From Bdellovibrionota bacterium (lineage in GTDB: Bacteria > Bdellovibrionota > UBA1018 > UBA923): 11,016 nt of DNA. The notes under the pieces were generated by a model. The model saw only the letters and a list, made by a program, of their open reading frames with translations. It searched no databases and had not been told where the DNA came from. A program made the position numbers and the translations under genes. The first letter of the stretch is position 1, and each line of letters starts with the position of its first letter. Below are positions 8,758 through 9,871 of the stretch, piece after piece. The stretch covers positions 1 through 11,016 of the forward strand of contig JBFMCE010000107.1 in NCBI GenBank assembly GCA_040754655.1, read 5' to 3'.

Positions 8758-9871
8758 CGTGTCCTATCCTTCCTTCATTCACTAAAAATATCTTCCCAAG
8801 ATGAAGATCTTCAGTAGTGCTCAAAAATACTTGTGAGTCCGAGCTCAATAAGTACTGTAGTAAAAACTCCCGCCTTCTTGCGTCTAACTCGGAAGAAAAA
8901 TCATCGATCAGCAAGATCGGACTCAAGCCTTGCTCAGTTTTATAGGCTTCAACTTCAGTGAGCCTCATCGCTAAAACCAATGATCTAACCTCGCCTTGAG
9001 ACCCAAAACTGCGCATTGGGTTGCCCGCCATGGTCAGTTCTACGTCATCTCGGTGAGGCCCCACCAAAGTTGAACCTACGATTCTCTCTTTTGGGAGCGC
9101 GGCCTTAAGCGATTCTGTTAAAACCCGAGAGATTAGTTCTAATGAATATAAGTTCGCTTGTCCATAGTGAACTTCATCAAAAATTTCGCTTAAATATCGT
9201 ACATTTAAATCAACGTTTTTGTGGGCGATCTCGTCGTAATATTTACGAATTTTATCCACGATTTTATCCACACTGTGGATACGATTGTGGATGACTTTTG
9301 AGCCCCAAAGAACAAGCTCTTCTGTCCATACTTCAAAGTCATCTGAGAGGGTAGAAATGCGCCCTTCCGAGACCGCTCTAAGCTGACGATTTCGGTGCTC
9401 AAGAAGCTTGTGGTAACGCAAAATGGCATCGGCGTGGGAAGGATCAAAAATCTGAGCGACTTTATCGATCCAGATACGACGATTTTCGGGCGAACCTCGA
9501 ACAATCTCAAGGTCGCTTGGGCTAAAACTTACGGCAGAAACTTTACCCACATACTCGCTGAGATATTTACAAGTTTTGCCATTAAAGGTGGCCTGCTTGC
9601 GGTGAGGCCAAAGTTTTACGGCCAGTTTTACGTCTAGCCCTCTGGTTTGAATGCGACCCTCGACAAGTCCTTCAGTTTCATGAACTCGAAGCATTTCAGC
9701 GTTCTTGGCGTGCCGAAAACTTCTTAAGAAGGCTAGAAGGCCTATTGCTTCTAATAAACTCGTCTTACCCTGGCCATTGAGTCCGGTGACCACATTAAAC
9801 CTGGGGTCGGGATGAATCTCGACTCGATCATAGCACCGGAAATGATAGAGCCGAATTTGCTCGAGAATCAC
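8717..9871 (-). CDS. recF: DNA replication and repair protein RecF
   Basis: Walker [27 protein letters not shown], signature GSQGE, Walker [15 protein letters not shown] start, between dnaN and gyrB, 41-nt overlap with gyrB. Confidence 0.97.
9208..9220 (+). promoter_or_regulatory. IHF-like binding site
   Basis: AATCAAcgttTTT versus consensus WATCAAnnnnTTR (one mismatch, last position), with an AT-rich 5' flank. Confidence 0.35.
9252..9294. promoter_or_regulatory. Cluster of four DnaA boxes inside recF
   Basis: TTATCCACG (9252-9260) att TTATCCACA (9264-9272) c TGTGGATAC (9274-9282) gat TGTGGATGA (9286-9294). One perfect and three single-mismatch boxes in dyad symmetry about base 9273. Confidence 0.85.

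What the first reader, a model, noticed from the sequence alone, without database searches (positions are those of the whole stretch)
9252..9294. Symmetric four-box DnaA array overprinted on the recF coding sequence
Seen: two forward boxes and two reverse boxes (one perfect TTATCCACA, three with one mismatch), each pair with a 3-bp spacer, converging across a single base at 9273. The protein reads V193[14 protein letters not shown]207, the translation of DnaA boxes, in a helix that is variable among RecF proteins, which suggests the DNA motif shaped the peptide. Known: E. coli DARS cores have a convergent box pair plus a tandem box; datA and Bacillus/Streptomyces DnaA-box clusters titrate or inactivate DnaA; these are mostly intergenic. 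Inference: a dual-coding replication control element about 1.7 kb downstream of the dnaN start, acting as a DARS/datA-like site, a sub-origin of a bipartite oriC, or a DnaA roadblock regulating gyrB-fabH-gyrA. I am not aware of a described case inside recF but could not search.
Basis: partly seen in the sequence, partly recalled or inferred. Interest (0 to 1): 0.85.

Follow-up and report, generated by a model that had tools for sequence, protein, structure and literature searches.

The report
DnaA-box array written into recF
Four binding sites for the replication initiator DnaA are written into the coding sequence of the repair gene recF next to the chromosome origin, and have been kept letter for letter across a deep clade of predatory-type bacteria, so this stretch of DNA serves two purposes at once.

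Summary
Window 9252-9294 reads TTATCCACg-att-TTATCCACA-c-TGTGGATAc-gat-TGTGGATga, inside recF codons 193-207. It is not chance and not explained by the protein. With the protein held fixed, a four-box cluster arose in 4 of 2000 synonymous permutations. In 7 related Bdellovibrionota genomes (RecF 42-67% identical), 54 of 56 box-position codons are the box-compatible synonym, against 24.8 expected. This is the strongest synonymous-constraint peak in dnaN, recF and gyrB: 0.99 against a background of 0.43. An aromatic residue common in other RecF proteins is replaced by residues whose codons supply a box base. Relatives carry a normal, box-rich oriC in the dnaA-dnaN spacer, using the same 9-mer and the same 3-bp spacing, and the GC-skew minimum lies there. 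The array is therefore an extra site about 1.8 kb from the origin, not the origin. An RNA hairpin gets no support from covariation. My best reading is two convergent "double DnaA boxes" forming an origin-proximal auxiliary DnaA site. Its exact role (sink, nucleotide switch, loop anchor or transcription roadblock) is untested. I class it as a new variant of a known kind.

The parts
9286..9294 (-). Box 1 in recF reading order: TCATCCACA, from codons V193(TC)-I194-H195-N196(A). It forms a double box with box 2 across a 3-bp spacer.
   Evidence: 1 mismatch, at position 2. ATC CAC is kept in 8 of 8 array-bearing sequences. TCATCCACA occurs 5 times among 120 box-type words in the oriC spacers of relatives.
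9274..9282 (-). Box 2: GTATCCACA, from codons R197(GT)-I198-H199-S200(A).
   Evidence: 1 mismatch, at position 1. ATC CAC is kept in 6 of 8 bearers and is lost in L011 and L009. GTATCCACA occurs 3 times among the 120 oriC words.
9264..9272 (+). Box 3: perfect TTATCCACA, from coding-strand T GTG GAT AA (S200 third base, V201, D202, K203). It converges on box 2 across the single base 9273.
   Evidence: 0 mismatches. GTG GAT AA is kept in 8 of 8 bearers although GTG makes up only 14-30% of Val codons in them.
9252..9260 (+). Box 4: TTATCCACG, from coding-strand C GTG GAT AA (I204 third base, V205, D206, K207). It stands in tandem with box 3 across a 3-bp spacer.
   Evidence: 1 mismatch, at position 9. 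It is present with at most 1 mismatch in WIN, L001, L003, L007 and L011, and is degenerate in L002, L004 and L009.
8717..9871 (-). recF coding sequence that carries the array. The array sits in the middle of a long helix, residues 177-216.
   Evidence: NCBIfam TIGR00611 RecF, E = 5.8e-87. AlphaFold2 model with mean pLDDT 89.8, helix 177-216, pLDDT 95-96 over residues 191-210. Related to solved RecF structures such as 5Z67, E = 1.2e-46.
8588..8608 (+). Second double DnaA box, TCATCCACA-3 bp-TTATCCACA, inside gyrB codons 50-57 (VVDNSVDE). It is probably part of the same system.
   Evidence: The same codons (GTT GTG GAT AAC nnT GTG GAT GAA) are found in WIN, L001, L002, L003 and L007, which are the four full-array sequences plus L002 (three boxes). 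This is the top synonymous-constraint window of the 810-codon gyrB, 0.76 against a background of 0.40.
9887..11008 (-). dnaN, which lies between the array and the origin (the origin is beyond the window's right end).
   Evidence: NCBIfam TIGR00663, E = 6e-109. In relatives the box-rich oriC ends just upstream of dnaN.
6325..8757 (-). gyrB. As listed, its ORF overlaps the recF 3' end by 41 bases. It is followed, tightly packed, by fabH, gyrA and a TPR gene, so the array lies inside a compact co-directional gene string.
   Evidence: The recF/gyrB overlap is also seen in L001, L004 and L007.

Best explanation
The site is a selected DNA element laid over recF codons 193-207. It consists of two convergent 'double DnaA boxes', each a tandem pair with a 3-bp spacer, meeting across one base.

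Shown: the sequence; its DNA-level conservation over a deep Bdellovibrionota clade; its identity in word and spacing to the boxes of the neighbouring oriC in relatives; and its position about 1.8 kb from that oriC on the DUE/dnaN side.

Inferred: it binds four DnaA protomers as two head-to-tail dimers facing each other. The 12-bp box period equals four codons, so the ATC/GTG codons fall on hydrophobic helix positions (I194, I198, V201, V205), which let the protein tolerate the overprint.

Inferred function, the mechanism I commit to: an origin-proximal auxiliary DnaA site, in the manner of the Bacillus DnaA-box clusters or datA. It would hold or modify DnaA beside the origin and be duplicated seconds after firing, so tuning initiation rather than starting it.

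My odds are about 0.85 that it is a DnaA-bound selected element. Within that, I put about 0.35 on a sink or negative initiation control, 0.15 on DARS-like nucleotide exchange, 0.15 on a loop or second origin module, and 0.2 on a transcription roadblock.
For: - The sequence and its rarity under controls are established.
- Synonymous sites are frozen. 54 of 56 box-position I/H/V/D codons in 8 sequences are the box-compatible codon, against 24.8 expected from each locus's codon usage, and none of 2,000,000 simulations reached 54.
- Of 171 RecF columns with a conserved residue, 13 use a single codon, and 6 of those 13 are array codons (Fisher p = 1.4e-6).
- The array is the highest 5-codon synonymous-identity peak of dnaN, recF and gyrB: 0.99 against 0.43.
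- On a GyrB tree the array maps to a 100/100-supported clade of 11 and is missing only in L005+L006 and L008, so it is old.
- The peptide departs from the usual RecF pattern. The aromatic at position 200 (59 of 73 non-bearers) is replaced by S, T or A, whose codons end in T in 7 of 8 bearers and so complete box 3.
- Relatives' oriC spacers use the same word (TTATCCACA is 74 of 120 box-type words, and all three variant forms of the array also occur there) and the same 12-bp tandem spacing.
- E. coli DnaA binds in vivo mainly to tandem box pairs 2-3 bp apart (PMC11317965, section 5 read).
- Boxes are lost one at a time while their partners stay perfect, which indicates modular protein sites.
- A second, independent array (VDSVDNFVDN, three tandem reverse boxes) sits elsewhere in recF of L062 and L067.
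- Perfect boxes are 13-fold denser from dnaN to the gyrB 5' end than in the rest of the loci: 48 in 220,845 bp against 17 in 1,003,864 bp.
Against: - There are no binding data of any kind.
- Four boxes are few beside the 20-27 box-type words of the adjacent oriC in L004, L007, L008 and L009, so plain titration would be weak.
- The array has decayed or been lost in 3 of 11 clade members and is partial in 4 more, so it is dispensable.
- The sequence is a palindrome whose mRNA folds well (-18.6 kcal/mol, z = -4.2).
- The window's own oriC was not seen, because the window ends 8 bases upstream of dnaN.
- The 8 sequences are not fully independent: L001 and L003 are close.
- The functional sub-choice rests on analogy only.
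Confidence: 0.6

Rival explanations
1. Transcription roadblock or operator. DnaA bound in recF, together with the double box 150 bp into gyrB, blocks or tunes RNA polymerase running from dnaN through recF into gyrB-fabH-gyrA. This would couple gyrase and RecF supply to DnaA level.
For: - The genes are tightly packed or overlapping and co-directional, so any DnaA complex here sits inside a transcription unit.
- The gyrB double box is co-conserved with the array in WIN, L001, L002, L003 and L007.
- Boxes in both orientations would block whichever direction matters.
- That DnaA acts as a transcription factor is established knowledge (abstract and section 5 of PMC11317965).
Against: - No conserved promoter-like element lies next to the array. 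All 12 top synonymous-constraint windows of recF are the boxes themselves, and the promoter scan found 3 weak sites against 1.6 expected.
- In other lineages the embedded boxes sit at quite different places (dnaN 3' end, recF 5' part). That fits a role tied to origin proximity better than control of one promoter.
- The E. coli ChIP-seq study did not detect DnaA at guaB, the classic intragenic roadblock site.
Confidence: 0.2
2. DARS-like reactivation site. The head-to-head contact of DnaA protomers on the two central convergent boxes releases ADP and regenerates ATP-DnaA next to the origin.
For: - The polarity is that of the E. coli DARS1 core read from K-12: forward box, gap, two reverse boxes 3 bp apart (PMC6868365, passages read).
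- A convergent pair (boxes 1 and 3) is the one feature kept in 8 of 8 bearers.
- A small, precise geometry suits a catalytic site better than a sink.
Against: - The central gap is 1 bp here against 5 bp in DARS1, which gives a different rotational setting.
- In L011 and L009 the convergent boxes are 13 bp apart.
- DARS is non-coding, and I recall it as known only from E. coli and its relatives (no call checked this).
Confidence: 0.15
3. Second module of a split (bipartite) origin. DnaA on the recF array bridges to the dnaA-dnaN cluster, looping out the DUE and dnaN, as in Helicobacter or Bacillus.
For: - The array uses oriC syntax, with the same word and 12-bp tandems, and convergent junctions with 2-5-bp gaps occur inside relatives' oriC.
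- It lies on the DUE side at a constant distance of about 1.75 kb.
- Bipartite origins with a gene in the loop are known (PMC3479198, abstract only).
Against: - Relatives' spacer oriC looks complete by itself: 20-27 box-type words in L004, L007, L008 and L009, a trio-like TAC repeat, an AT-rich end, and in L007 the GC-skew minimum.
- The array has no AT-rich unwinding element.
- It is lost in L005, L006 and L008.
Confidence: 0.15
4. An RNA or DNA hairpin. The palindrome is kept because the recF-gyrB mRNA needs a stem-loop there, for stability, processing or pausing, and not because of DnaA.
For: The sense-strand RNA folds to -18.6 kcal/mol against -8.55 +/- 2.37 for shuffles (z = -4.24, 0 of 200 shuffles as good). 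Every bearer keeps at least one forward and one reverse box.
Against: - On the 8-sequence alignment 76.7% of cells pair, against 76.1% in shuffles (228 of 500 as high). No box-stem pair shows a compensatory change, and 9 of 15 pairs depart only by broken pairs.
- When one box is lost its partner stays a perfect DnaA box.
- The conserved letters equal the oriC word rather than any complementary pair.
- Same-orientation arrays that cannot pair are also conserved: the gyrB pair, the L062/L067 triple and the extra L009 pair.
Confidence: 0.04
5. Protein-driven coincidence. RecF needs the peptide [14 protein letters not shown], and biased codon usage happens to spell DnaA boxes.
For: The peptide is conserved: all four dipeptides in 17 of the 47 proteins of alignment A1 (the window's own included) and three in 9 more. 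A universal GyrB motif (VDNxVDE) does spell boxes through protein constraint.
Against: - Codon choice is frozen far beyond codon usage (54 of 56 against 24.8 expected; GTG in 8 of 8 at V201 with 14-30% usage).
- Non-bearing RecF proteins use a different, aromatic-containing pattern in the same helix.
- A peptide whose DNA is its own reverse complement has no protein-level rationale.
Confidence: 0.02

Closest known systems
'Double DnaA box' sites of E. coli (Stringer, Fitzgerald and Wade 2024, PMC11317965; section 5 read)
   Same: Each is a tandem pair of 9-mers 2-3 bp apart, one box at or near consensus, and this pair is the unit that DnaA occupies in vivo. A few bound regions are intragenic, including one inside dnaN of unknown role.
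   Different: Here two such pairs face each other across 1 bp. The site lies wholly inside a reading frame and has reshaped the peptide. It is next to the origin. It comes from an uncultured Bdellovibrionota lineage with no binding data.
E. coli DARS1/DARS2 core (PMC6868365, passages read; DARS1 read from K-12)
   Same: A small cluster with one box opposed to two tandem boxes, convergent polarity, and a 3-bp tandem spacer.
   Different: DARS has a central gap of 5 bp against 1 bp here, three boxes against four, and is intergenic. Its ADP-release activity is demonstrated, whereas here it is untested.
oriC-proximal DnaA-box clusters of Bacillus subtilis (PMC3245932, passages read), with datA of E. 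coli as discussed there
   Same: DnaA boxes outside oriC but close to it. They were proposed or shown to restrain initiation, with an effect that depends on dosage near the origin.
   Different: The six Bacillus clusters are in intergenic regions. The array here has only four boxes and is dual-coding.
Bdellovibrio bacteriovorus oriC (PMC5124646, passages read)
   Same: Same phylum and same gene string, dnaA-(oriC)-dnaN-recF-gyrB-gyrA. The box consensus is NN(A/T)TCCACA, which three of the four boxes here fit exactly. Two footprinted boxes lie inside a coding sequence, the dnaA 3' end.
   Different: Those intragenic boxes adjoin the spacer and count as part of oriC. The passages shown mention recF only in naming the gene order around oriC. 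The array here is 1.7 kb away, beyond dnaN.

Membership tests
DnaA box / double DnaA box | 9-mer matching TTATCCACA (at most 1 mismatch), the word used in the lineage's own oriC | tested here: met
   One perfect box and three boxes with 1 mismatch. All four word forms occur among 120 box-type words in the oriC spacers of 7 clade members, where TTATCCACA accounts for 74.
DnaA box / double DnaA box | Tandem pair in the same orientation, 2-3 bp apart | tested here: met
   Both pairs have 3-bp spacers. The criterion comes from PMC11317965.
DnaA box / double DnaA box | Occupied by DnaA in vitro or in vivo | not testable with these tools
Chromosomal origin (oriC) or origin sub-module | AT-rich unwinding element next to the boxes, and the GC-skew switch at the site | tested here: not met
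   The flanks are ordinary coding sequence with GC of about 0.45, and there is no skew switch in the window. In relatives the AT-rich end lies in the dnaA-dnaN spacer (L004 and L007), and in L007 so does the skew minimum.
DARS core | One box opposed to two tandem boxes, in convergent polarity | tested here: met
   DARS1 in K-12 has a forward box at 308-316 and reverse boxes at 322-330 and 334-342 of L081. The array reads forward, forward, reverse, reverse.
DARS core | 5-bp space between the opposed boxes I and II | tested here: not met
   The space is 1 bp here, against 5 bp in DARS1.
DARS core | Promotes ADP release from DnaA | not testable with these tools
   This needs a biochemical assay.
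datA-type DnaA-inactivating locus | Box cluster with an IHF site that stimulates DnaA-ATP hydrolysis | not tested
oriC-proximal DnaA-box cluster (Bacillus type) | Lies outside oriC but close to it | tested here: met
   The array is 1714 bp from the dnaN start. In L004 and L007 it starts about 1.75-1.8 kb beyond the last oriC box.
oriC-proximal DnaA-box cluster (Bacillus type) | Located in an intergenic region | tested here: not met
   The array lies entirely inside recF codons 193-207. The Bacillus clusters are intergenic.
Structured RNA element | Base pairs kept through compensatory changes | tested here: not met
   76.7% of cells pair against 76.1% in shuffles (228 of 500 as high), and there is no compensatory change in the box stems.

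The most novel reading that the evidence does not exclude
In this Bdellovibrionota clade the genes just downstream of the origin (dnaN, recF, gyrB) act as a second, protein-coding layer of the initiation apparatus. Because the gene string leaves no intergenic room, DnaA-box arrays have been written into reading frames, at least twice independently in recF, with helix periodicity matched to the 12-bp box period. The symmetric four-box site would then be a head-to-head DnaA assembly that switches DnaA's nucleotide state or anchors an origin loop. That would make it a coding-sequence equivalent of DARS/datA, or the far half of a split origin.
Probability: 0.25. Interest if true: 0.8.

Novelty: new variant of a known kind. 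Interest (0 to 1): 0.66.

Why it matters
Extra DnaA sites that time replication (datA, DARS, the Bacillus and Streptomyces clusters) are described as intergenic in the sources I read or recall. This case would show that such a site can live inside a gene for a very long time and can override the protein's own preferred sequence. That makes it a clean natural example of a regulatory DNA code constraining a protein.

It also offers a compact, symmetric four-site substrate for studying head-to-head against head-to-tail DnaA contacts. More practically, it warns that origin-control elements will be missed by scans limited to non-coding DNA. The independent array in another lineage's recF, and the excess of perfect boxes from dnaN to the gyrB 5' end, suggest a general feature of origins in this phylum.

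Tried and rejected
- **Origin inside recF.** Rejected: relatives have a full oriC in the dnaA-dnaN spacer (L001, L004, L007, L008, L009), and in L007 the skew minimum lies there.
- **In-frame insertion of oriC DNA into recF.** Rejected for this array: 81 RecF sequences align without gaps over residues 186-214, and the invariant R197 sits between boxes 1 and 2.
- **RNA hairpin.** It folds well but has no comparative support.
- **Adjacent conserved promoter.** None was found.
- **Weak NCBIfam DnaA hit on RecF residues 177-250** (E = 2.3e-4). BLASTP of RecF against the DnaA of L007 shows only the shared P-loop and noise, so I treat it as spurious.
- **Other single boxes in the window** (dnaN 10243 and 10263, recF 9543, gyrB 7853, gyrA 4608). 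By relative position, the dnaN and recF ones are not at conserved places, and 7853 and 4608 lie beyond that table's range, so their conservation was not examined. I left all of them out. A box near gyrB codon 148 (window 8306-8314) recurs in L003 and L007 but mismatches at core position 6, so I did not count it.
- **Literature.** A search for 'DnaA box' + 'recF' + 'within the coding' returned 0 papers. 'DnaA box' + 'recF' returned 40 papers, of which 25 were listed; judging by titles and abstract starts only, none is on a recF-internal array. 'DnaA box' + 'intragenic' returned 9 papers.
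Full report
**What is there.**
- All large genes of the window lie on the minus strand. In order they are dnaN (9887-11008), recF (8717-9871), gyrB (6325-8757), a fabH-type gene (5316-6332), gyrA (2772-5291), a TPR/YbgF-like gene, and ATP-synthase a and c subunits.
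- They are tightly packed or overlapping. As listed, the recF and gyrB ORFs overlap by 41 bases.
- At 9252-9294 the plus strand reads TTATCCACg-att-TTATCCACA-c-TGTGGATAc-gat-TGTGGATga. That is one perfect DnaA box and three with a single mismatch, arranged as two tandem pairs with 3-bp spacers that converge across base 9273.
- In the recF frame this is GTC ATC CAC AAT CGT ATC CAC AGT GTG GAT AAA ATC GTG GAT AAA, or V193[14 protein letters not shown]207.

**Is it more than chance?**
- The window holds 13 boxes with at most 1 mismatch, against 1.65 +/- 1.29 in dinucleotide shuffles.
- The harder control keeps every protein and permutes synonymous codons within each of seven genes. A four-box cluster in 43 bp arose in 4 of 2000 permutations, and total boxes were 4.46 +/- 1.84 (largest 12) against 13 observed.
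- Given the peptide and the window's codon usage, four boxes are expected with probability 0.00098.

**Relatives.**
- RecF homologues come from uncultured Bdellovibrionota (labels such as Bacteriovoracia, Bacteriovoracaceae, Oligoflexia and 'Deltaproteobacteria'). The closest is about 70% identical.
- In the alignment of 47 proteins (the window's RecF plus 46 homologues), the dipeptides IH, IH, VD, VD at positions 194-5, 198-9, 201-2 and 205-6 are all present in 17, three are present in 9, two in 6, and one or none in 15.
- One genome scan gave 80 loci with DNA. By box count at this site (at most 1 mismatch):
  - WIN, L001, L003 and L007 have four boxes.
  - L002 has three, and L011 has three, all perfect.
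  - L004 has two, plus one with two mismatches at the tolerant positions 1-2.
  - L009 has two perfect boxes, plus two further perfect boxes about 70 bp upstream in recF.
  - L005, L006, L008, L010 and L012-L080 have none.
- I built a GyrB tree of 26 rows: 11 clade members plus 15 outgroups. L010 was left out because its gyrB is truncated, and L033 and L036 dropped out for lack of a long adjacent gyrB. The tree puts WIN and L001-L009 plus L011 in one clade with 100/100 support. The array-less L005+L006 are sisters nested inside it, and L008 is sister to the partial bearer L009.
- The simplest history is an old array with later decay.

**DNA or protein?**
- The codons answer this. ATC CAC at box 1 is found in 8 of 8 bearers, ATC CAC at box 2 in 6 of 6 that keep I-H, GTG GAT AA at box 3 in 8 of 8, and GTG GAT at box 4 in most.
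- In these genomes ATC is 24-82% of Ile codons, CAC 42-55% of His, GTG 14-30% of Val and GAT 46-75% of Asp.
- Overall, 54 of 56 box-position codons are box-compatible against 24.8 expected, and none of 2,000,000 simulations reached 54 (with inputs hand-copied). L001 and L003 are close relatives, so the sequences are not fully independent.
- Of 171 RecF columns whose residue is shared by at least 6 of 8 bearers, only 13 use a single codon, and six of those are array codons 194, 195, 198, 199, 201 and 202 (Fisher p = 1.4e-6).
- In a 5-codon sliding measure of synonymous identity over dnaN, recF and gyrB, the array scores 0.99 against a recF background of 0.43. The best dnaN window scores 0.64.
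- The peptide also departs from the normal RecF pattern in this helix. Among 73 non-bearers R197 is invariant, position 198 is mostly L, position 200 is W (49), F (6) or Y (4), and position 204 is mostly L or I.
- Bearers instead have S, T or A at position 200, with a codon ending in T in 7 of 8, which supplies the first base of box 3. They have a variable spacer residue at 204.
- The AlphaFold2 model (mean pLDDT 89.8) places residues 193-207 in the middle of a long helix, 177-216. The 12-bp box period equals four codons, so I194, I198, V201 and V205 keep a hydrophobic stripe.
The helix is not, however, freely variable.

**Where is the origin?**
- The window stops 8 bases upstream of dnaN, so its own spacer is unseen.
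- In L007 and L004 the gene upstream of dnaN is dnaA (TIGR00362, E about 1e-156). The 560-660-bp spacer carries 25-27 box-type words, mostly perfect TTATCCACA, in tandem runs with 2-4-bp spacers and also in convergent junctions.
- The spacer ends with two abutting boxes, a short G+C stretch, a TAC repeat and an AT-rich run just before dnaN.
- L001, L008 and L009 show the same kind of cluster. In L007 the GC skew changes sign there. In the window the skew is one-signed throughout.
- Across seven clade members, 74 of 120 NNNTCCACN words in the spacers are TTATCCACA. The array's other three forms (TCATCCACA, GTATCCACA, TTATCCACG) also occur there.
- The recF array is therefore an additional site written in the origin's own syntax, about 1.75-1.8 kb beyond the last origin box on the DUE/dnaN side. 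It is not the origin.

**Wider pattern.**
- The tandem pair at window 8588-8608 lies in the universal GyrB motif VVDNSVDE, so the protein explains the possibility of boxes there.
- The exact box-forming codons are nonetheless shared by WIN, L001, L002, L003 and L007, and this is the top synonymous-constraint window of gyrB (0.76 against 0.40).
- L062 and L067, a separate lineage, carry their own array in a different part of recF. It reads AAT GTG GAT AGT GTG GAT AAC TTT GTG GAT AAC, peptide N-VD-S-VD-N-F-VD-N, and forms three tandem reverse boxes.
- Over all 81 sequences, perfect boxes are 13 times denser from dnaN to the gyrB 5' end (48 in 220,845 bp) than in the remaining non-origin DNA (17 in 1,003,864 bp).
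- Clusters of three or more boxes occur only in origin spacers, the recF sites and four other places.

**Rival: RNA hairpin.**
- The sense RNA folds to -18.6 kcal/mol (z = -4.24), as any convergent box pair must.
- On the 8-sequence alignment the fold is no better kept than in shuffles (76.7% against 76.1% of cells paired, 228 of 500 shuffles as high). No box-stem pair shows a compensatory change, and where one box is lost its partner remains a perfect box.
- Same-orientation arrays that cannot pair are conserved too.

**How it most likely works.**
- E. coli ChIP-seq shows that DnaA occupies tandem box pairs 2-3 bp apart, that both boxes and the spacing matter, and that a few bound regions are intragenic, including one in dnaN of unknown role (PMC11317965, section 5 read).
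- By that rule the array is two double boxes facing each other. I infer four protomers arranged as two head-to-tail dimers meeting head-to-head.
- The polarity is that of the DARS1 core, which I read from E. coli K-12 as forward box, 5-bp gap, then two reverse boxes 3 bp apart (PMC6868365, passages read). Here the central gap is 1 bp.
- In Bacillus, origin-proximal clusters restrain initiation with a dosage effect, but they are intergenic (PMC3245932, passages read).
- In B. bacteriovorus the origin is in the dnaA-dnaN spacer, the box consensus is NN(A/T)TCCACA, and two footprinted boxes lie in the dnaA 3' end (PMC5124646, passages read).
- I commit to an origin-proximal auxiliary DnaA site that tunes initiation. 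Embedded boxes sit at varied positions in different lineages, and no neighbouring promoter is conserved. Both points favour a role tied to origin proximity over control of one promoter.
- The small size of the array argues against bulk titration and leaves a catalytic or architectural role open. None of this was tested.

**Novelty.** My searches found no description of a DnaA-box array inside recF or of a box array that reshapes a protein. They cover open-access papers and preprints only. I class the site as a new variant of a known kind.

Noticed in passing
window 8588-8608 (gyrB codons 50-57): The universal GyrB motif VVDNSVDE is spelled as a double DnaA box, TCATCCACA-3 bp-TTATCCACA. The same codons are kept in L001, L002, L003 and L007, and this is the top synonymous-constraint window of gyrB. 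Across all loci where the motif was found, the first VDN is a perfect box in 14 of 71. By position, a second perfect box 63 bp downstream recurs in L008, L009, L018, L030, L058 and L067; I did not inspect its codons.
   Followed up: partly
L062 3504-3533 and L067 about 8431-8451 (recF codons about 78-88): There is an independent DnaA-box array in a different part of recF in another Bdellovibrionota lineage: peptide N-VD-S-VD-N-F-VD-N, three tandem reverse boxes, two of them perfect. L067 and L058 also have three-box clusters at the dnaN 3' end.
   Followed up: partly
L009 10001-11175: recF of L009 changes reading frame near 10327, from either a frameshift or an assembly error. It has lost boxes 2 and 4 but carries two extra perfect forward boxes (K-LST-G-FIH-R) about 70 bp upstream of box 1.
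   Followed up: partly
L007 8790-8880, L004 8770-8850: The origin ends with two abutting boxes (TTATCCACAnTATCCACA), a short G+C stretch, a TAC repeat (four units in L007, three in L004, which may be DnaA-trio-like) and an AT-rich run immediately before dnaN.
   Followed up: no
L005 and L006 (dnaA-dnaN spacers): The two sister genomes that lost the recF array also have the poorest origins: 5 and 8 box-type words, against 20-27 in L004, L007, L008 and L009. L008 is an exception, with a rich origin and no array. The sample is too small to conclude anything.
   Followed up: no
window 5316-6332: A fabH-type ketoacyl-ACP synthase III gene sits between gyrB and gyrA. An ORF of the same size (337 aa, not checked against a family) lies at that place in L004, whereas in L007 gyrA follows gyrB directly.
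   Followed up: no
window 8717-9871 (RecF residues 177-250): There is a weak NCBIfam hit of this RecF stretch to a DnaA model (NF001154, E = 2.3e-4, below cutoff). BLASTP against the DnaA of L007 shows only P-loop similarity, so the hit is probably spurious.
   Followed up: yes
L001 (JBBRLF010000322.1): The record is labelled candidate division WWE3, but its GyrB is sister to L003 within the Bdellovibrionota clade (100/100) and its RecF is 67% identical to the window's RecF. The contig is probably mis-binned.
   Followed up: no
window 1312-1740 (minus strand): A 142-aa ORF between the TPR gene and atpB has no NCBIfam match.
   Followed up: no
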